From Escherichia coli (GTDB lineage Bacteria > Pseudomonadota > Gammaproteobacteria > Enterobacterales > Enterobacteriaceae), in NCBI RefSeq assembly GCF_003334385.1, contig NZ_QOWN01000001.1: a DNA stretch of 64,000 nt. One strand, given 5' to 3'. The translations under genes and the position numbers were made by a program. The stretch's first letter is position 1; each line of letters starts with the position of its first letter. Of this stretch, positions 2,901-47,837 are shown piece after piece. Under the pieces are notes generated by a model that made no database searches, was not told the DNA's origin, and saw only the letters and a program-made list of their open reading frames with translations.

Positions 2901-3557
2901 TTATTGGTTTACTGCATATACAACCAGAAATTGCAGCGGTGCAGTAATGATGTCCAGCGTAACAGTCACTGGCAGTAATGCTGCGGAAACACCATCCGGA
3001 ATGCCTCTGGGTGAATAGTATTCATAAAATCGCACTTTAAATGGATGGTAGAACGCCATCACCTTTGAGTAATCCATGTTTTTATTTTTCTCATGGATTG
3101 TGCCTTTTAGGTTTTCCAGTGACCTGGTACAGTGTTGAACACCACAGGCAAAACCATAATGCGTTGCCAGTGCCTTTTCTTCTTCGTTATTCCAGTAGTA
3201 GTAAAGCGATATTGTGCCGGTAAATTTCTTTTTCCCCGCATTTAAAACAAATCTTGCGTCATCGGCAACCTGAATATTGTGCCGGTTAAGTGCTGGATCA
3301 TTGAGCATCTTAACGATGTCATCGGCACCATCAGTGATAAGGTAATCCAGCGATTCCCCTACAAAAACATAGCCTTTTGTTCCATTACTATCTTTTGCCT
3401 GCGATAGCCCAGTGATGGTGTCTGACTGCGATTGATACTTTCCTGAACTACCCTTTGCGGTATGGGAAACCAGAGCATACGAGATACAGCCTGAAAGCAT
3501 CAGCGCCAGTGGGAATAAACCGGCAGCCTTAAAAAATCCCTTAAAATTCAACTTCAT
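2901..3557 (-). CDS. yidX: Lipoprotein YidX
   Basis: ORF 2901-3674; likely start at MKLNFKGFF (218 aa) with a lipobox (LSGC); synteny. Confidence 0.8.
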
Positions 3558-4524: not shown

Positions 4525-5399
4525 CAGCTCGCTACATCGCAATTGACTGGGGATCGACCAATCTGCGCGCCTGGCTTTATCAGGGCGACCACTGCCTGGA
4601 GAGCAGGCAATCAGAAGCAGGCGTCACGCGCCTGAACGGAAAATCTCCGGCTGCGGTGTTAGCAGAAGTCACGACCGACTGGCGTGAAGAGAAAACGCCA
4701 GTGGTAATGGCAGGAATGGTTGGCAGCAACGTCGGCTGGAAAGTTGCACCGTATTTATCTGTTCCTGCCTGTTTTTCGTCTATTGGCGAACAATTAACGT
4801 CAGTTGGCGACAATATCTGGATTATTCCCGGATTATGTGTCTCTCATGACGATAACCACAATGTGATGCGCGGCGAAGAAACACAATTGATCGGCGCGCG
4901 AGCTCTGGCTCCTTCCTCTCTTTATGTCATGCCCGGAACCCATTGCAAATGGGTGCAGGCCGATAGCCAGCAAATCAACGATTTTCGCACCGTGATGACC
5001 GGTGAATTACATCATTTACTGTTAAATCACTCATTGATTGGCGCAGGTTTGCCGCCGCAGGAAAACTCTGCCGATGCCTTCACAGCTGGCCTTGAGCGTG
5101 GTCTTAATACGCCCGCCATATTGCCGCAGCTTTTTGAAGTTCGCGCCTCGCATGTGCTGGGAACACTTCCCCGCGAACAGGTCAGCGAATTTCTCTCTGG
5201 TTTGTTGATTGGCGCAGAGGTCGCCAGTATGCGCGACTATGTGGCCCATCAACACGCCATCACCCTTGTCGCCGGAACATCGCTGACCGCGCGCTACCAG
5301 CAAGCCTTTCAGGCGATGGGTTGCGACGTGACGGCGGTGGCGGGCGACACGGCATTTCAGGCTGGTATAAGGAGCATCGCTCATGCAGTGGCAAACTAA
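4521..5399 (+). CDS. dgoK: 2-dehydro-3-deoxygalactonokinase
   Basis: 292 aa; overlapping start/stop with neighbours, operon context. Confidence 0.9.
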   Translation: MTARYIAIDWGSTNLRAWLYQGDHCLESRQSEAGVTRLNGKSPAAVLAEVTTDWREEKTPVVMAGMVGSNVGWKVAPYLSVPACFSSIGEQLTSVGDNIWIIPGLCVSHDDNHNVMRGEETQLIGARALAPSSLYVMPGTHCKWVQADSQQINDFRTVMTGELHHLLLNHSLIGAGLPPQENSADAFTAGLERGLNTPAILPQLFEVRASHVLGTLPREQVSEFLSGLLIGAEVASMRDYVAHQHAITLVAGTSLTARYQQAFQAMGCDVTAVAGDTAFQAGIRSIAHAVAN

Positions 5400-6000
5400 A
5401 CTCCCGCTGATCGCCATTTTGCGCGGTATTACGCCCGACGAGGCGCTGGCGCATGTTGGCGCGGTGATTGACGCCGGGTTCGACGCGGTTGAAATCCCGC
5501 TGAATTCCCCACAATGGGAGCAAAGCATTCCCGCCATCGTTGATGCGTACGGCGACAAGGCGTTGATTGGCGCAGGTACGGTACTGAAACCTGAACAGGT
5601 CGATGCGCTCGCCAGGATGGGCTGTCAGCTCATCGTTACGCCCAATATCCATAGTGAAGTGATCCGCCGTGCGGTGGGCTACGGCATGACCGTCTGCCCC
5701 GGCTGCGCGACGGCGACCGAAGCCTTTACCGCGCTCGAAGCGGGCGCGCAGGCGCTGAAAATATTTCCGTCATCGGCTTTTGGTCCGCAATACATCAAAG
5801 CGTTAAAAGCGGTATTGCCATCGGACATCGCAGTCTTTGCCGTTGGCGGCGTGACGCCAGAAAACCTGGCGCAGTGGATAGACGCAGGTTGTGCAGGGGC
5901 GGGCTTAGGCAGCGATCTCTATCGCGCCGGGCAATCCGTAGAGCGCACCGCGCAGCAGGCAGCAGCATTTGTTAAGGCGTATCGAGAGGCAGTGCAATGA
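5383..6000 (+). CDS. dgoA: 2-dehydro-3-deoxy-6-phosphogalactonate aldolase
   Basis: 205 aa, KDPG-aldolase-like; operon context. Confidence 0.9.
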
Positions 6001-40857: not shown

Positions 40858-42042
40858 CTAAATATCTTTAATAAACAGCAGGCAAATCATCGCAATACCC
40901 AACATCCCTATCGCCAGCCAGAACAACGCATGGTAGCTCCAGATTTCAACCATAATTCCGTCAACAGAGCCGGCGATAATCCAGCCGACGCGTGAAGTAT
41001 TTGCATATAACGTTGTCGCAGAGCCTATTTTTTCAGGCATCAAGTCCTGAAAATAAAGCATGCCGATACCACAGAGAATACCAAGGAAGATGGCATTAAG
41101 AATTTGCAATTCCAGCTCAACCGCCGGAGTCGTCGCCATGAGTACGCTGGCGTAAAAACACATTCCACTCACGATAGCAATGAGCATTAATAGTCGCTTG
41201 CCAATACGTTTCATGTAATAGCCTGCGATTAACATCATCGGAATTTCCAGACCGGCAGCGATACCAATCATTTCTCCAGCCAGTTTATCGGTTAGATGCA
41301 GTTCATCAATAATAAATAGCGGCATATTTATCATGTAGAGATTATTCGCCGCCCACATCATTGAACAGACCACAAAAAGTAGCCGCGTATCCCGCTTCCT
41401 GTGGGTGGAGGGTAAAATTTCTACGGGTTGGGTAACGACAGGAATATTTCTTTGTATTGATGGCAAAAACAACCAGACTATCAGTCCGCAAACAACAAAT
41501 GCGATGGCAGCGGTGAGATACATCACTTTAAAACTAAATCCCATTGCCAGTTCATAAGCGAGCGGTGGCCCGATAACCCAGGCAAGCGAGATCTGAGCAC
41601 GTAAAAATGTACTGAACATGACCGTCTCACGGCCTGTTCTGTCGGCGTGTTCACGGGCGAGGGCGAACATTTGCGGGTTTGCGGTGGAAGCAAAACTACT
41701 CAGAAGTACGCCCGTTGAGAGGAGAATGAAGTAGTTGCGATTCCACGCAAAAAGCGTGCAGGCCAGCACTCCAAATAAGCAACATAGCAGAATCAGTAAC
41801 TTACGGTCGCCTTGTTTATCGGAGTGCCTTGCCAGAAATTGACTGACCAGAATTCCCATAATAGCGCTACCGGTGAAGAAAAAACCTACCATTATAGGAC
41901 GGGCTTTCAGTTCATCTGCGAGGAATATACTTAGGGTAGGAGTCTGAAGAGCGCCCGCAATACCCGTCAGAAAGGCGACAAGTAAAAATGCCGCGGCAGT
42001 GAGATCAAGTATTTTTGATGGAGTGGTAGCCGTTTTTTGCAT
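40858..42042 (-). CDS. setC: Sugar efflux transporter SetC (MFS)
   Basis: 394 aa MFS; in E. coli this gene sits immediately downstream of selC. Confidence 0.9.
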   Translation of the reverse strand: MQKTATTPSKILDLTAAAFLLVAFLTGIAGALQTPTLSIFLADELKARPIMVGFFFTGSAIMGILVSQFLARHSDKQGDRKLLILLCCLFGVLACTLFAWNRNYFILLSTGVLLSSFASTANPQMFALAREHADRTGRETVMFSTFLRAQISLAWVIGPPLAYELAMGFSFKVMYLTAAIAFVVCGLIVWLFLPSIQRNIPVVTQPVEILPSTHRKRDTRLLFVVCSMMWAANNLYMINMPLFIIDELHLTDKLAGEMIGIAAGLEIPMMLIAGYYMKRIGKRLLMLIAIVSGMCFYASVLMATTPAVELELQILNAIFLGILCGIGMLYFQDLMPEKIGSATTLYANTSRVGWIIAGSVDGIMVEIWSYHALFWLAIGMLGIAMICLLFIKDI

Positions 42043-42678
42043 TCTTCTGAATCACCGGGCGAAAAAATATAACTGAGTTACAAATAAGTACCAGTCGAAT
42101 GAGTATTGTATTAAGAATTTTTGAGTATCGCTGATACAACCAGAAAGCAATGCTAGCGCAATATTATAGGGCCAGCAATTGAGATTATTAGTAAAAGCAT
42201 GTTAAGAATTAATTACCGAATTTATATATTAATTATAGTAAGGCAATGAGCTATTTTTGATAGTAAAAATAAAACAAGTTGATTTGATATATTAAATGAA
42301 CAAATTAATCTTGATGGCAGTCTGATTATTGGTGAAGTTTATAGTCAGTTTTTTTCGCCAGCGGTTAAAGAAATAGAATAGTCGTATAAAAAAGGGTGTT
42401 CTGGGGCGAGTAAAACAACATCTTCACCTTAATGGCGATACAGTTGGCTGAGAGTCAGCAGGGGGGCAAATCACCTGCAAATAAACACGGCGCATACTGG
42501 CGTGAATATCGCGGATGCGTTCGAGGACAGAAGAACCGACAGGCGGATTCTTCAGCCGCTCATCGTCCATCACAAAACCTTAGACCAGGTATTCCTGAAG
42601 CCGATTGAATATTGAGCAGTAGAAAATATCTGGATTGACAGTATTACAAGGGGTTGGAGAACGTCAGGAGAGGCATTT

Positions 42679-42702
42679 TGGCGGAAGATCACAGGAGTCG
42701 AA
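42679..42702 (-). other. selC: 3'-terminal 24 nt of tRNA-Sec (selC): attachment-site core marking the island boundary; the rest of the tRNA is not in the window
   Basis: tggcggaagatcacaggagtcgaa is the reverse complement of the recalled selC 3' end (TTCGACTCCTGTGATCTTCCGCCA); the sequence then diverges into AT-rich foreign DNA. Confidence 0.8.
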
Positions 42703-42834
42703 TATAAGTATTAATGCATTGATCTTAAATAATTTGTATGTGTTGGATAAATGAGTAACCCCCATAAGAACCCCCAAATGATTTTGCATGAAGGAATGAA
42801 GCTAAAATACATAATTGAATCAATTCTTAGTACT

Positions 42835-43680
42835 CTATTGTGAAGGTAACATTTCCGGATAGTGTCTGGCTATAATATCATTTAGCCGATCAACCAGTTC
42901 TGGTTTCCTGAACGTGATGTGCGCGGAGCCCTTCTTAAAGTATCTGATGCTGAACATTTCATCTTCATAGCACTCTTTACCCTGAACAGACCGGATGTGC
43001 TCATCCAGATGAATAGTGATGTTTTCCCGGTTGTCGGGGATCGGTTTGCCGCTGAACAGATGCAGCATTCTTTACAGGTCGGCAAGTCGATCGGCCTGTG
43101 GGCCGTTGTTCAGATGAAATCCCCATCTGTCCCACCTCACCAGATTGTTGACGATAATTTTACTGCCAAATTTACAGGGTGAATTGTTTTTGTAATTCCA
43201 GCTCAGTCCCCTGAAAACATTAATTACCCCTCGCTCAAACACCTCATCCTTATTCTGGTGCAGTTGTTCAAATGTGCTCAGAATGTTCGCTTCACTGATT
43301 TCCGGAAAATTATCGTACTCCAGTGACCGGTACCATGTATCACGGGCCTGCGCATCCATTAATGACAGCATCCCGGAACGTTGCATCAGGTCACGCCAGA
43401 TTTCGCGGTCAAGGTTGCGGGTGATGGCTTTCATTGCTGTTTCAGGTTTCTCCATGAGCCAGCATCCGCAGCGAAAATTCTGTTTCATCGCCCAGTCCCG
43501 TGCGCTTTTACCACCAATGCTTTTTGTCAGTACTGAGATTTCAGTCAGTTGCCGGATAAGCGTTTCGGTTTGTTGCAGTGCTGCATTCCGTACCGTCACA
43601 ACGTGTCGGATACTGGTGGAGCAGATAACGTCCGTATTCCCGGTGACCACTTCCGGATGGGAGATTGTGATGTTTGACAT
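42835..43680 (-). pseudogene. Conserved island protein (possibly DUF4942 family) interrupted by an in-frame TAA
   Basis: ORFs 43072-43680 and 42835-43068 are in the same frame, separated only by TAA (43072-43074) and one codon; together about 281 codons. Confidence 0.6.
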
Positions 43681-43764
43681 TATCGGTTTCCCTTTTGGTT
43701 TATAAACGAAAACGCCAGCCGTATTCAGGCTGGCGTCAGTGGAATGAAGTCTGGTGAGTAAGGC

Positions 43765-44007
43765 TCACCGGTTCTGTTGCAGAAGCTGCAGTTGGCGCAG
43801 GGTATGGATATCCTCCCTCGCCTGTTCAATGCAGGGCAGCAGTGCTGCCGAATCCGTTTTATCCTCATCGTTGTCAAAGATAATTCCCGATTCGCAGTCG
43901 ATATTGTCCTGCAGCCACGCAATCAGAATATCCAGTGCTGTTTCCGTGGTTAATGATTTCATGTTGTTCCTGGTTACCAGTTGAAAGTGGGTAAACCCGG
44001 CAGGCAT
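43765..44007 (-). CDS. Small hypothetical protein (CP4-type island)
   Basis: 80-aa ORF downstream of the toxin module; acidic and coding-like; no function assignable. Confidence 0.4.
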   Translation of the reverse strand: MPAGFTHFQLVTRNNMKSLTTETALDILIAWLQDNIDCESGIIFDNDEDKTDSAALLPCIEQAREDIHTLRQLQLLQQNR

Positions 44008-44462
44008 TCAGCGCTGGCATCCAGATGAATGAGACTGACGCCATAACGTCGGGTAAGTGTGACAACCAGACAACGGAACGTTTTTGACAGGCCCAGGCGC
44101 TTAAGCCGCAGAACCGGGTATGACCACGCATCGGTACGTAACAGATAGCCGCTGCCTGTAAAATGAATCCATTCTGATTCGCCGTCGTCATTAGTCTGGT
44201 GTGACAGCGAGTACAGCCAGGCGTTGTCCGTTTCCGTGATATGTGCGGTGCTGCAACGTATGCAGGTAAGGGTTGTTAACGGTGGTGGTGTACTGGTTGC
44301 GTGTTGGTCGGATTTATCGACCACGCGGAGTAAATAACCGTTTTCAGAGACCTTGTTAATCAGTTCACTGAGATTAACACCATCGACGTCAACGACAATG
44401 CGCCCCATGTTCAGTGCCTGCACGTTAACGCTGTCGGCTTCCAGCGTCAGGGCCAGTTTCAT
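43974..44462 (-). CDS. Hypothetical protein downstream of CbtA (YeeW-like position)
   Basis: 162 aa; start overlaps the cbtA-like stop (ATGA); positional analogue of yeeW in CP4-44. Confidence 0.5.
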
Positions 44463-44836
44463 TGTTTTGCCTCCGGATGCTTGCCCTGGGTAATGTTATT
44501 TACCATTCTGTAATTGTTCCGGGTCATCAGGCCGGTTGCCCTGCGAGCCCGGAGAATATCAATGCTGTTGATTAACTGCGACGGGGCTCCTGCGCTGAAT
44601 CCCGGCTGGTCGGTACGTACCAGCGCGTATTTTTCAACGAGAAAGTTCACCGCGTCACACAGTGAAATCCCTGCCTCAATATGCTGCTCAATCACACGTT
44701 CATCAGCGAACGGTGTGTCATTCAGCGTGAGGCCATAGTGCTGGTCCAGCAGTCGGGTGAGCAGTGTCTGCCAGATGGTGACGGGAGACGGGCAGCCCGA
44801 TGCCTCCCGTACGTGAGTGTCGGGTAATGTATTCAT
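44459..44836 (-). CDS. CbtA/YeeV/YkfI-family type IV toxin
   Basis: From MNTLPDTH, 125 aa; strong similarity to recalled YeeV ([52 protein letters not shown]). Confidence 0.85.
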
Positions 44837-44882
44837 CTTAAGTTCTCTGTAACAGGTGGTGATAAAGGGGAGATATCCGGGG

Positions 44883-45320
44883 TTATACGGTGATTGCGGG
44901 CGCTGCCGGTGTCGGATAAACAGCCAGATAAACGTAACCACAACTGCCAAGGGTATCGGCTTCGCAGGTCAGCCCTTTCGCATACAGTGTGATGGTATGC
45001 TGATGGCGGGGATTCAGTTCACCGCTGGTGAGCATGAGTTCCAGTTGTTTCATCAGCAGCGGAAAGGCCTGGTCCAGGTGGTATGCATCCGCGTCGCTGA
45101 ACCGGCCTCTGATACCGGCACGGTCGGCAAGGTAATGCAACCGGTTACCCTCCTGCACCAGACGTGCCCCGAAACAGGGCGTCACGGTGCAGGGCAGCCC
45201 CCACCAGGGGCGGTCGTGATTGTCGTCGGGATGCGTTGTCCCGGGCAGTGTGTCTGACACGATAAAGTCCTCACAGAAATCAGTTAAGAATGGTTCGATG
45301 GTGGCGATAATTCGGCTCAT
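44883..45320 (-). CDS. CbeA/YeeU/YafW-family antitoxin
   Basis: Contains [49 protein letters not shown]; the true start may be the internal GTG (VSDTLPG), giving about 124 aa. Confidence 0.85.
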
Positions 45321-45338
45321 CAGAATGCCCTTCCTGAC

Positions 45339-45560
45339 TCAGTTCAGGGTGACGCTCATCAGCCGGACATACGGGCCAAAACTGTCTTTACGGCGTTCTG
45401 CAAACACAGCCAGCACACCGGGAATATCCTGCACTTCACGACCGGTATACGCTTCAGTGCTGCCGTGCCAGCGGTATTTGCCGGTACAGAACGGAAAAAG
45501 ACGGGATGCCGGATGTTGTTGGTGAATACGCATGGCTTCACCACGGGTGATGATTTTCAT
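45339..45560 (-). CDS. DUF987-family protein (YeeT/YkfH-like)
   Basis: 73 aa MKIITRGEAMRIHQQHPASRLFPFCTGKYRWHGS...; canonical position upstream of the TA pair. Confidence 0.8.
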   Translation of the reverse strand: MKIITRGEAMRIHQQHPASRLFPFCTGKYRWHGSTEAYTGREVQDIPGVLAVFAERRKDSFGPYVRLMSVTLN

Positions 45561-45628
45561 AGTGTGATACCTCTGAAGACAGAAGATAAAAGCGAAAACT
45601 GGTATGATGTGGTTGTAACGGTGACGGG

Positions 45629-46105
45629 TTAAAGCAGACCGTGTTCCGCAAAGGAGAAAACCTGGCTGCCACCGACTATCAGATGGTCCGGCACCCGGAT
45701 ATCCACCAGGCCCAGTGCCTGTACCAGACGTTCCGTGATAAGGCGGTCTGCCTTGCTGGGTGTGACTTCACCGGACGGGTGATTGTGTGCCAGCACCACA
45801 GCAGCGGCATTGTGATACAGGGCGCGTTTAATCACTTCCCGGGGATGGACTTCCGTGCGGTTGATGGTGCCGGTGAAGAGGGTTTCACCGGCAATCAGCT
45901 TATTCTGGTTGTTCAGATACAGCACCCGGAATTCTTCACGCTCCAGTCCCGCCATGTTCAGAATCAGCCATTCCCGTGCCGCACGGGTGGAGGTGAAGGC
46001 CACACCGGGTTCATGAAGATGGCGGTCCAGGGTTTTCAGGGCCCGCTGAATGAGGCTGCGCTCGCCGGGCGTCATCTCTCCTGGCAGAAAGGAAAGCTGT
46101 TGCAT
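45629..46105 (-). CDS. RadC-like JAB-domain protein (YeeS/YkfG/YfjY-like)
   Basis: 158 aa with JAMM-like motif (HNHPSGEVTPSKAD). Confidence 0.85.
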   Translation of the reverse strand: MQQLSFLPGEMTPGERSLIQRALKTLDRHLHEPGVAFTSTRAAREWLILNMAGLEREEFRVLYLNNQNKLIAGETLFTGTINRTEVHPREVIKRALYHNAAAVVLAHNHPSGEVTPSKADRLITERLVQALGLVDIRVPDHLIVGGSQVFSFAEHGLL

Positions 46106-46119
46106 TGTTCCAGCCCCTT

Positions 46120-46605
46120 TCAGTCAATGATGCGCATAATGGCGTTGCATTCCGGATGCTGCAGGGCGTAGTCCCGCAGACGGTAATAATGAACCGTCAT
46201 GGCATAACACTCCGTGCGACAGGCATGATGACTGTACGTCATCAGACAGGCAGCAATGCCGGCGGCTTCCGGGCTCATTTCAGCACGGTTACCGTTCATG
46301 GCATTGAACAGTACCCATGTCTCGTCATCATCGTCATCCGGTTCGGGTGCCATAAATGCCCCGCCGTTGTTCAGGGTGTACAGATTCCAGATACCACCGC
46401 AGTAGTCTTCGCAAAGATGGTCCATCCAGCCGAAGACACGGGGTTCCAGGGTCACCCACTGTGGAATGAGGCCAAAATGCTGCGGCCAGAAGCTGATGCG
46501 CTGTTCATGAGGAACGAGAGTGGCAACCAGTTGAGGCTGGTCATTCTCTGAAGCTGTGACTACGGAAGCAGAAAGTGTACAGGTGTTCTGAGAAACAGTT
46601 TTCAT
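46120..46605 (-). CDS. Antirestriction protein (ArdB/KlcA family; YfjX/YafX-like)
   Basis: 161 aa, acidic stretch (EPDDDDDE); conserved position in CP4-type islands. Confidence 0.75.
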   Translation of the reverse strand: MKTVSQNTCTLSASVVTASENDQPQLVATLVPHEQRISFWPQHFGLIPQWVTLEPRVFGWMDHLCEDYCGGIWNLYTLNNGGAFMAPEPDDDDDETWVLFNAMNGNRAEMSPEAAGIAACLMTYSHHACRTECYAMTVHYYRLRDYALQHPECNAIMRIID

Positions 46606-46695
46606 GAGTGAAATCCTTATAAAACAAATAAATGCAGGGTTTTCGGGGAGCAGGGGGTAGGGGAGCCTGAATCACGTCTTCAGGGATGTGCTGCA

Positions 46696-47514
46696 TCAGC
46701 GCATGTTCTCCAGCAGCGTTTCTGTCATTACCCACAATGCGCGATTGAGCTTAATGTCCGTGTCGATGCTGTGAATGGCACGGGTGTGGATACGTTTTCC
46801 TTTAGCGCTGCGACCGGAAATCCCGCCTTTCAGCATATTCTCCTGGATGGTCTGATATGCGCTCCACAGGTCCTTACCGTAATCCTCCCGGCGTCGCGGC
46901 GTCAGAATGTCGGCGGTGGTGACGGGCTGATGTTCGTCACCATAACGGTAAGTCAGTGCCGCCTGTGCCAGCGCCTGGCGTGCCGGTGGCGGCAGAATCA
47001 GCGACTGCATGGCATCACGCTTTTCCTCAATCCGGTCAAACACGCCCACCACCTTGTAAGCCCCTTCAATGACTCTGTCCACCACATTTCCCCGGTGCGG
47101 AACACGCACTTCCCCCAGAGACTGACCACAGACGCATCCGTTCTGGCAGACGAACCTGAAGTAACCCGGCAGCATCTGGTAGCTGGAGGTACCGTCATGG
47201 GAGTTCAGCAGGATGATTTCAGGGACATGTTGTCCGTTTATCTCCCCGTCACGGCGCAGACGCAGCATGTGTTTGGTGTATCCCCGGCGGCCCGGGTCGC
47301 GCACACGGGTCTGGCAGGCGAAGAATGGCTGAAAACCTTCCCGCTGCAGGCTTTCCAGCACTGTGATGGTGGGGATCCAGGTATAGTTCTCGCTTCTGGA
47401 TGTGTGCTTATCTTCCCCGAATACGCTGGGGACGACCTGCATCAGTTCTTCACGAGTTAAGGGACGATCACGGCGTATCTGATTTACATGACCAAAACGA
47501 CTGGCTAATTGCAT
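46696..47514 (-). CDS. DUF932-family protein (YafZ/YfjQ-like)
   Basis: 272 aa; family and position typical of CP4-like elements. Confidence 0.75.
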   Translation of the reverse strand: MQLASRFGHVNQIRRDRPLTREELMQVVPSVFGEDKHTSRSENYTWIPTITVLESLQREGFQPFFACQTRVRDPGRRGYTKHMLRLRRDGEINGQHVPEIILLNSHDGTSSYQMLPGYFRFVCQNGCVCGQSLGEVRVPHRGNVVDRVIEGAYKVVGVFDRIEEKRDAMQSLILPPPARQALAQAALTYRYGDEHQPVTTADILTPRRREDYGKDLWSAYQTIQENMLKGGISGRSAKGKRIHTRAIHSIDTDIKLNRALWVMTETLLENMR

Positions 47515-47603
47515 ACTTTGCTCCTTATGAATGAGTTAGCGGTATAAATGAAAAGGCCGCGTCTCCCGGAGAAGACGCGGCCTGATGGATGAAATGAAGA
47601 CGT

Positions 47604-47837
47604 TTATTGCCTGAGAATTCCCTCACTGGCGAGATATGGATTTAGCTGTTTTCCGGCATCAGGTTCAAAATTCCAGCACCGCCAGCGTAGCTGCCCTTCA
47701 GCATTGTGGATAACCAGCCGGAAATGCGTTCCCTGATCATCTTCAATAAGCACATTGCGGTAAGCTGTTGTGACAGCCATCGCCTGTTCGCGTGAGAAAG
47801 GGCCTTCGGGCAATAAAACAGGGTGACAGTCCGACAT
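47604..47837 (-). CDS. DUF905-family protein (YkfF-like)
   Basis: 77 aa; motif [12 protein letters not shown]...WNFEP. Confidence 0.7.

What the first reader, a model, noticed from the sequence alone, without database searches (positions are those of the whole stretch)
42043..42678. Long AT-rich spacer between setC and the selC core
About 640 bp without a plausible ORF separates the setC start from the att core. I cannot tell from sequence alone whether this is the ancestral setC-selC intergenic region (possibly holding the setC promoter) or debris from an earlier integration at the same tRNA.
Basis: seen in the sequence. Interest (0 to 1): 0.25.

Follow-up and report, generated by a model that had tools for sequence, protein, structure and literature searches.

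The report
Native selC-setC spacer with rhuM relic
This 636-base stretch is the ordinary E. coli sequence between the selC tRNA gene and setC, base-for-base the same as in strain K-12, and it holds an already annotated dead fragment of a rhuM gene plus the AT-rich, silenced control region of setC, so it is not new.

Summary
Window 42043-42678 is a 636-bp stretch with no intact gene, lying between the setC start codon and a 24-nt copy of the selC 3' end (42679-42702).

It is not debris of the island next to it. It is 100% identical and collinear with the selC-setC intergenic region of K-12 MG1655, which has no island at selC. In 2490 of 5426 complete E. coli genomes, intact selC abuts this same spacer directly. 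No second, degenerate att core lies inside it.

The native spacer is composite:
- **Relic, 42439-42600 (- strand):** an internal fragment of a RhuM-family gene, covering residues 121-185 of 345, with an in-frame stop and two deletions. It is already annotated as pseudogene yicT in K-12 and as a rhuM pseudogene by PGAP. About 16% of genomes instead carry selC-intact rhuM-hypothetical gene-yicL, without setC.
- **AT-rich part, 42043-42438 (32% GC):** the upstream region of setC. In K-12, published work describes it as an H-NS-bound "promoter island" and a sigma-S RNA polymerase binding site, and places a very strong Rho-dependent termination zone upstream of setC.

Verdict: ordinary and already known, of low interest.

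The parts
40858..42042 (-). setC, a sugar efflux transporter gene (394 aa). Its start codon bounds the interval.
   Evidence: ORF list. TIGR00899, E 1e-194. Annotated setC in K-12 and O104:H4.
42043..42438 (-). AT-rich upstream region and leader of setC (31.6% GC). About 42056-42386 corresponds to the published K-12 'promoter island'. C exceeds G on the setC-sense strand throughout.
   Evidence: Composition. 100% identity to K-12. PMC3661553 Table 1 lists the selC/setC promoter island 3834632_331 as H-NS-bound in all studies. Weak but significant homology to the E. albertii setC upstream region.
42163..42168 (-). Perfect TATAAT -10 hexamer on the setC-sense strand with a weak -35, about 114 nt upstream of the ATG. 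Candidate setC promoter, prediction only.
   Evidence: Own scan. It coincides with the sigma-S holoenzyme SELEX peak 3834856 in the selC>setC spacer (PMC5493296), after a coordinate conversion that I inferred.
42232..42237 (-). Second perfect TATAAT hexamer on the setC-sense strand. Prediction only.
   Evidence: Own scan.
42439..42600 (-). Relic of a RhuM-family gene (pseudogene yicT/b4653 of K-12). It covers residues 121-185 of a 345-aa protein, with an in-frame stop and 8- and 3-codon deletions, and lacks both ends.
   Evidence: tblastn against intact E. coli RhuM: 63% identity, E 3e-20. Pfam PF13310, E 4e-10, model positions 52-98 of 252. K-12 and PGAP annotations. Frameshifting 1-bp indels in other strains.
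42601..42663 (-). 63 nt of unassigned origin between the conserved selC-downstream 15-mer and the rhuM relic.
   Evidence: No significant similarity to the B2-type locus or to island attL arms. It carries a 15-bp deletion in strain CUVET19-1396.
42664..42678 (-). 15 nt (AAATGCCTCTCCTGA) that follow selC in every locus type examined.
   Evidence: 39-nt 100% match (core plus 15 nt) to the B2-type locus. Alignment A1.
42679..42702 (-). att core: a copy of the last 24 nt of selC. It marks the distal junction of the island that fills 42703 onwards.
   Evidence: Identity with K-12 begins exactly at selC nucleotide 72.
42703..42787 (-). Terminal arm of the adjacent island. It is outside the finding and is listed because a homologous arm sits next to the degenerate att core of the B2-type rhuM islet.
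   Evidence: 75% over 124 nt, E 2e-17, to L003 5258-5371.

Best explanation
The interval is the native selC-setC intergenic region of most E. coli. It is unchanged by the island now inserted at selC, which only moved selC itself more than 21 kb away. It has three layers.

(1) Next to the att core lie 15 conserved nt and 63 nt of unassigned sequence.

(2) A 162-bp internal relic of a RhuM-family gene (yicT) follows. It is left over from an older small element at selC that about one genome in six still carries intact.

(3) About 400 bp of AT-rich DNA forms the upstream region of setC.

The working picture comes from published K-12 experiments on the identical sequence. RNA polymerase, including the sigma-S form, binds the AT-rich part, but H-NS coats it. 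Transcripts heading towards setC, whether read-through from selC or started in the spacer, are C-rich and G-poor and are stopped by Rho. setC is therefore kept nearly silent.

Shown here: the identity, the collinearity, the relic and the absence of a second att core. Taken from the literature: H-NS binding, polymerase binding and the Rho effect. Inferred: the exact promoter position and the order of the deletions.
For: The interval is 100% identical over 720 nt to K-12 from selC nucleotide 72 through the spacer into setC, and K-12 has no island there. 3619 of 5426 genomes hold at least 80% of the spacer. 2490 have selC contiguous with it, for example L008 and L009. The relic is supported by tblastn E 3e-20, Pfam PF13310 E 4e-10 and the yicT and rhuM pseudogene annotations. 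Intact rhuM lies 52 bp after selC in APEC O2-211, and that layout is found in 844 genomes. Published work shows a promoter island with H-NS binding (PMC3661553), sigma-S and RpoH holoenzyme SELEX peaks in the spacer (PMC5493296), and setC RNA up 31.85-fold in Rho N340S, classed 'very strong' (PMC9160355). C exceeds G on the sense strand from 42500 down to 42050, and there are two perfect TATAAT hexamers. The E. albertii setC upstream region is still alignable (score 75 against 34.6 +/- 5.8 in shuffles).
Against: The simple sigma-70 consensus scan finds no site on the setC strand inside the spacer and no excess of sites (2 found, 3.5 expected). No transcription start site was available to me. 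The conversion of published U00096.2 coordinates (offset 1977) is my inference. The published data are for K-12, not this strain, although the sequence is identical. The spacer diverges at about half the rate of setC four-fold sites (3.0-3.3% against 6.2-6.8%). That hints at constraint but rests on about a dozen differences.
Confidence: 0.9

Rival explanations
1. The interval is debris left by an earlier island integration at selC, lying between two att copies and unrelated to the island-free chromosome.
For: It does contain a gene fragment. In B2-type strains, rhuM really is bracketed by an attL-like arm and by an attR-like arm with a degenerate core.
Against: The interval is identical and collinear in K-12 and contiguous with selC in 2490 genomes. 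No degenerate core lies inside it: the best match has 10 of 24 mismatches, and 197 of 500 shuffles do as well or better. The 63 nt next to selC show no significant similarity to island arms (113 of 500 shuffles reach the score).
Confidence: 0.03
2. The whole selC-yicL segment of K-12-type strains (rhuM relic, AT-rich spacer and setC) is a fossil islet. On this view setC and its AT-rich upstream region were acquired at or next to the selC hotspot, and the 'empty' selC site of K-12 is not truly empty. This overlaps with the best explanation rather than excluding it.
For: Only selC and yicL are common to all layouts. K-12-type strains have the relic plus setC. B2-type strains have rhuM plus a 165-aa hypothetical gene at 33% GC and no setC. 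In Salmonella, yicL sits 278 nt from the mgtC start site at the far end of SPI-3. SetC orthologues were found only in E. coli (99%) and E. albertii (about 90%), and the next relatives are SetB at 72-73%. The promoter-island paper marks the locus as associated with a predicted foreign gene. The setC-proximal spacer is 26-32% GC.
Against: setC itself is 46% GC, close to the genome value. No att copy or mobility gene flanks setC. SetC could equally be an old in-genome duplicate of setB. The B2 layout could be the derived one. No outgroup with an intact selC-setC junction was examined: the E. albertii locus is cut by IS1 375 bp upstream of setC.
Confidence: 0.35
3. The spacer hides a functional small gene or a structured RNA.
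For: Several 30-58 codon ORFs exist. The spacer diverges somewhat more slowly than setC four-fold sites.
Against: Rfam gives no hit at E up to 1. The ORFs have no family support other than the rhuM relic, which carries a stop codon and, in other strains, frameshifts. K-12 annotation lists only the pseudogene there.
Confidence: 0.04

Closest known systems
selC-setC intergenic region of E. coli K-12 MG1655 (NC_000913.3 3836317-3836952), with pseudogene yicT (b4653)
   Same: 636 of 636 bases are identical and in the same order, between the same two genes.
   Different: Nothing within the interval differs. In the window an island separates it from selC, leaving only the 24-nt core next to it.
RhuM family (Pfam PF13310), named after rhuM of Salmonella island SPI-3 at selC. 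It matches PADLOC phage-defence candidate PDC-S05.
   Same: The relic matches the family profile (E 4e-10) and aligns with residues 121-185 of intact E. coli RhuM. The intact E. coli protein matches PF13310 at E 6e-118 and PDC-S05 at E 3e-173. Like SPI-3 rhuM, it lies beside selC (for SPI-3).
   Different: Only 162 of about 1038 bp survive. The fragment has a stop codon and two deletions and lacks both ends, so it is a pseudogene and not a working member.
'Promoter islands' of E. coli (Panyukov and Ozoline 2013, PMC3661553)
   Same: The selC/setC spacer of K-12, identical in sequence to this one, is one of the 78 listed islands. It is H-NS-bound in all cited ChIP studies and linked to a predicted foreign gene.
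   Different: I could not run their PlatProm predictor. A plain consensus scan shows no excess of promoter-like sites.
Distal (attR) junctions of selC-integrated islands such as the O104:H4 resistance island
   Same: The junction has the same 24-nt core followed by the same chromosomal flank.
   Different: The interval is the chromosomal side of that junction and not part of the island. The window's island is only about 88-96% identical to the O104:H4 island.

Membership tests
Native E. coli selC-setC backbone spacer | Present, collinear and near-identical in genomes without an island at selC | tested here: met
   100% identity to K-12. selC is contiguous with the spacer in 2490 of 5426 genomes. 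L008 and L009 show the same layout.
Native E. coli selC-setC backbone spacer | Flanked by setC on one side and the selC 3' end on the other | tested here: met
RhuM-family gene (PF13310) | Significant match to the family profile | tested here: met
   E 4e-10, model positions 52-98 of 252. E 3e-20 against intact E. coli RhuM.
RhuM-family gene (PF13310) | Complete open reading frame covering the domain | tested here: not met
   Only residues 121-185 are present, with an in-frame stop and 8- and 3-codon deletions. It is therefore filed as a pseudogene relic.
Island att remnant (second att site) | A degenerate copy of the selC 3'-end core within the interval | tested here: not met
   The best match has 10 of 24 mismatches, within the shuffle range. 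No fuzzy match allowing up to 7 errors was found.
Promoter island / H-NS-silenced upstream region | Listed genomic region with H-NS occupancy and dense predicted start sites | tested here: inconclusive
   The sequence is identical to the listed K-12 region. PlatProm was not available, and the simple scan shows no enrichment.
Rho-dependent termination zone | C-rich, G-poor transcript region, and increased downstream RNA when Rho is impaired | tested here: met
   The composition test was run here: C 14-33% against G 4-23% on the sense strand. The functional part comes from the literature only: 31.85-fold in Rho N340S.

The most novel reading that the evidence does not exclude
The 'empty' selC site of K-12-type E. 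coli may be a fossil island. On this reading the rhuM relic, the AT-rich H-NS/Rho-silenced spacer and setC itself are what remains of one or two old insertions between selC and yicL. setC would then be an acquired, silenced gene rather than core backbone.
Probability: 0.35. Interest if true: 0.25.

Novelty: already known. Interest (0 to 1): 0.08.

Why it matters
It matters little beyond correct annotation. The result fixes the island boundary at the 24-nt core (42679-42702). It shows that everything from 42678 downwards is ordinary chromosome. It also explains the odd composition of the spacer by features already in K-12 annotation and literature: the yicT/rhuM relic, the H-NS-bound promoter island and Rho-dependent silencing of setC. 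The only mildly interesting point is evolutionary. The selC hotspot carries layered remains of earlier elements even in 'island-free' strains.

Tried and rejected
- **Second att core inside the interval:** none. I used an exact and 3-mismatch search, an ungapped scan and a fuzzy search with indels.
- **63 nt next to selC (42601-42663) as a relic of an island attL arm:** rejected. A 14-nt similarity to the O104:H4 attL arm is no better than shuffles (113 of 500). It also shows no similarity to the B2 flank beyond the degenerate attR.
- **RNA families:** no Rfam match at E up to 1.
- **NCBIfam and PHROGs for RhuM and the 165-aa hypothetical protein:** nothing found.
- **Plasmid and phage collections:** only the rhuM fragment matches other species. 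The full-length matches are mislabelled chromosomes or probable contamination.
- **Repeats in the spacer:** only short AT-rich direct repeats and one 30-nt inverted repeat at 70% complementarity, consistent with chance in AT-rich DNA.
- **Intrinsic terminator after selC:** one weak 5-pair hairpin, against 0.5 expected by chance, so not convincing.
- **Literature search on 'yicT':** only unrelated hits. The 1997 SPI-3 paper is not held.
- **The 81%-identical SetC-like protein on a metagenome contig:** it sits between fruB (the setB neighbour) and yicL. It may be an assembly or recombination chimera, so I did not use it as an outgroup.

Full report
**Observation**

setC occupies 40858-42042 on the - strand. 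It is a 394-aa sugar efflux transporter (TIGR00899, E 1e-194). The last 24 nt of selC (TTCGACTCCTGTGATCTTCCGCCA) occur once in the window, at 42679-42702 on the - strand, with no match in 100 shuffles. ARAGORN finds no tRNA gene anywhere in the window.

The interval is 38.1% GC against 49.9% for the window, but the composition is uneven:
- 42043-42438 is 31.6% GC, falling to about 26% in 42100-42400.
- 42439-42600 is 52.5% GC.
- 42601-42678 is 41% GC.

No ORF in the interval has family support apart from a RhuM fragment. Rfam finds nothing at E up to 1.

K-12 MG1655 has no island at selC. There selC ends at 3836316 and setC starts at 3836953, which is also 636 bp, with pseudogene yicT (b4653) annotated in between. 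A local alignment of the window (reverse strand) with K-12 gives 720 of 720 identical bases. The identity starts exactly at selC nucleotide 72, runs through the whole spacer, and continues into setC as far as I supplied sequence.

Across 5426 complete E. coli genomes:
- 4527 match the spacer, and 3619 hold at least 80% of it.
- A 228-nt query spanning selC plus the first 133 nt of the spacer is contiguous in 2490 genomes.
- Two further island-free examples are L008 and L009.

The interval is native chromosome, and the island boundary is the core at 42679-42702. A search for a second, degenerate core inside the interval found nothing. The best ungapped match has 10 of 24 mismatches, 197 of 500 shuffles do as well or better, and there was no fuzzy match allowing up to 7 errors.

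**What the native spacer contains: the rhuM relic**

PGAP annotates a 'rhuM: RhuM family protein' pseudogene under the match in essentially every genome. In frame -1, 42600-42439 aligns with residues 121-185 of an intact 345-aa E. coli RhuM. The alignment is 63% identical (E 3e-20) and shows an in-frame stop (LQEYLV*GF), an 8-codon deletion and a 3-codon deletion. The fragment matches Pfam PF13310 (Virulence_RhuM) at E 4e-10, model positions 52-98 of 252. The intact protein matches the same family at E 6e-118. Other strains carry additional 1-bp frameshifts in the relic, as expected for a decaying pseudogene.

The intact gene is found at the same place in other E. coli. In APEC O2-211 the order is selC, 52 bp, rhuM, a 165-aa hypothetical gene (33% GC), then yicL, with no setC. 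This layout covers at least 80% of the query in 844 of 5426 genomes.

The two layouts share only three pieces:
- the selC 3' end plus 15 nt (100% over 39 nt);
- the rhuM fragment (75% over 154 nt, with a 75-nt core at about 95%);
- the sequence from 29 bp upstream of yicL.

In the rhuM-bearing layout, rhuM is bracketed like a small island:
- The 52 nt after selC resemble the attL arm of the O104:H4 selC island (score 39 against 14.4 +/- 2.2; 0 of 500 shuffles reach it).
- About 110 bp after the rhuM stop lies a degenerate copy of the core, with a 4-bp deletion, followed by AAATGCCTCT. It is preceded by an arm 75% identical over 124 nt (E 2e-17) to the terminal arm of the window's own island at 42703-42787.

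So rhuM at selC is a genuine remnant of an earlier integration, and the K-12-type spacer keeps only 162 bp of it. The literature places rhuM in Salmonella SPI-3, whose insertion site is tRNA-selC (PMC3680342). Intact E. coli RhuM also matches the PADLOC phage-defence candidate PDC-S05 at E 3e-173.

**What the native spacer contains: the AT-rich part**

The AT-rich part is the upstream region of setC. It has no similarity to the rhuM-bearing layout, or to plasmids or phages other than mislabelled records. It is weakly but significantly alignable with the region upstream of E. albertii setC: window 42110-42368, local score 75 against 34.6 +/- 5.8 in 200 shuffles. It therefore travels with setC.

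Published K-12 data apply because the sequence is identical:
- The selC/setC spacer is one of 78 'promoter islands' (entry 3834632_331). It is H-NS-bound in all cited ChIP studies and associated with a predicted foreign gene (PMC3661553).
- Genomic SELEX places a sigma-S holoenzyme peak at 3834856 and an RpoH peak at 3834954 in the selC>setC spacer (PMC5493296).
- setC RNA rises 31.85-fold in the Rho N340S mutant. The authors class this as a very strong Rho-dependent termination zone upstream of setC (PMC9160355).

I converted the old U00096.2 coordinates with an offset of 1977. This is my inference, and it is consistent with all three features falling inside the spacer. On that conversion the promoter island is about window 42056-42386 and the sigma-S peak is about 42162.

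My own scan finds two perfect TATAAT hexamers on the setC-sense strand, at 42168-42163 and 42237-42232, both with weak -35 elements. It also shows C above G on the sense strand from 42500 down to 42050, the composition expected of Rho loading sites. The plain sigma-70 consensus scan finds no qualifying site on that strand and no excess of sites. The promoter position therefore remains a prediction.

**Divergence**

| Strain | setC four-fold sites | AT-rich part | rhuM relic |
|---|---|---|---|
| L007 | 6.8% | 3.0% | 4.3% |
| L008 | 6.2% | 3.3% | 4.4% |
| L009 | 0 of 195 | 2.3% | 3.1% |

The slower divergence of the spacer in L007 and L008 is a weak hint of constraint on the AT-rich part and rests on about a dozen differences. 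In L009, setC is identical at four-fold sites while the spacer differs by 2-3%. That suggests a recombination boundary near the setC start.

**Wider context**

Only selC and yicL are constant among the layouts examined. In Salmonella, yicL lies 278 nt from the mgtC start site at the far end of SPI-3 (PMC3641672). SetC orthologues were found only in E. coli (99%) and E. albertii (about 90%), and the next relatives are SetB at 72-73%. This leaves open that setC and its silenced upstream region are themselves an old acquisition at the selC hotspot. I rate that at about 0.35.

It is not shown, for these reasons:
- setC is 46% GC.
- No att copy or mobility gene flanks setC.
- The E. albertii locus I could read is cut by IS1 375 bp upstream of setC.

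**Verdict**

The caveat is that this native region carries a known rhuM pseudogene relic (yicT) from an older selC element. Everything here is already in genome annotation or the K-12 literature, so the finding is ordinary and scores low.

Noticed in passing
L003 4164-6510 (E. coli APEC O2-211, NZ_CP006834.2): There is an alternative layout of the selC-yicL region: selC, intact 345-aa rhuM, a 165-aa hypothetical gene (33% GC) and then yicL, with no setC. It is found in 844 of 5426 complete genomes. rhuM is bracketed by an attL-like arm and by an attR-like arm with a degenerate core carrying a 4-bp deletion.
   Followed up: partly
L007 about 3119-3138 (strain CUVET19-1396) and L003 5258-5288: The same 4-bp deletion (TTCC) in the distal att core appears in two settings: a K-12-type strain carrying a P4-like primase island at selC, and the rhuM islet of B2-type strains. 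This suggests a shared origin of that degenerate att copy, or an island family whose att site lacks those bases.
   Followed up: no
window 42835-43680 (- strand): The DUF4942 gene at the end of the adjacent island is split into 202-aa and 77-aa ORFs in the same frame by a stop codon. The O104:H4 island has one intact 281-aa gene here. The copy in the window is probably a pseudogene.
   Followed up: partly
window 42757-42780: A tandem pair, AACCCCCATAAG / AACCCCCAAATG, lies in the island's terminal arm. It is conserved in the O104:H4 island arm and in the arm next to the B2-type degenerate att core. It could be a recombinase or accessory-protein binding site.
   Followed up: no
GenBank MG065686.1 and MG065691.1 (Campylobacter phages A18a and A11a): Both phage records contain a 398-bp stretch 100% identical to the E. 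coli setC upstream spacer. This is most likely E. coli DNA contamination or misassembly in those records.
   Followed up: no
L009 (strain RM11911) against window 40858-42678: setC differs at 0 of 195 four-fold sites, but the adjoining spacer differs by 2.3-3.1%. This points to a recombination breakpoint near the setC start.
   Followed up: no
L012 (metagenome contig ERZ650280 NODE_1714): A Set transporter 81% identical to SetC lies between a fruB-like gene (the neighbour of setB in E. coli) and yicL-nlpA-yicS. It is either a setB/setC recombinant locus in a related species or an assembly chimera.
   Followed up: no
L010/L011 (E. albertii) 4928-6000: In E. albertii an IS1 sits 375 bp upstream of setC, and beyond it lie tdh/kbl and the LPS core genes instead of selC. 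The selC side of the locus has therefore been rearranged.
   Followed up: no
window 42703-47800 against L002: The island in the window is only about 88-96% identical to the O104:H4 2011C-3493 selC island, although the spacer is 100% identical. The window therefore comes from a different strain with a related CP4-like island.
   Followed up: partly
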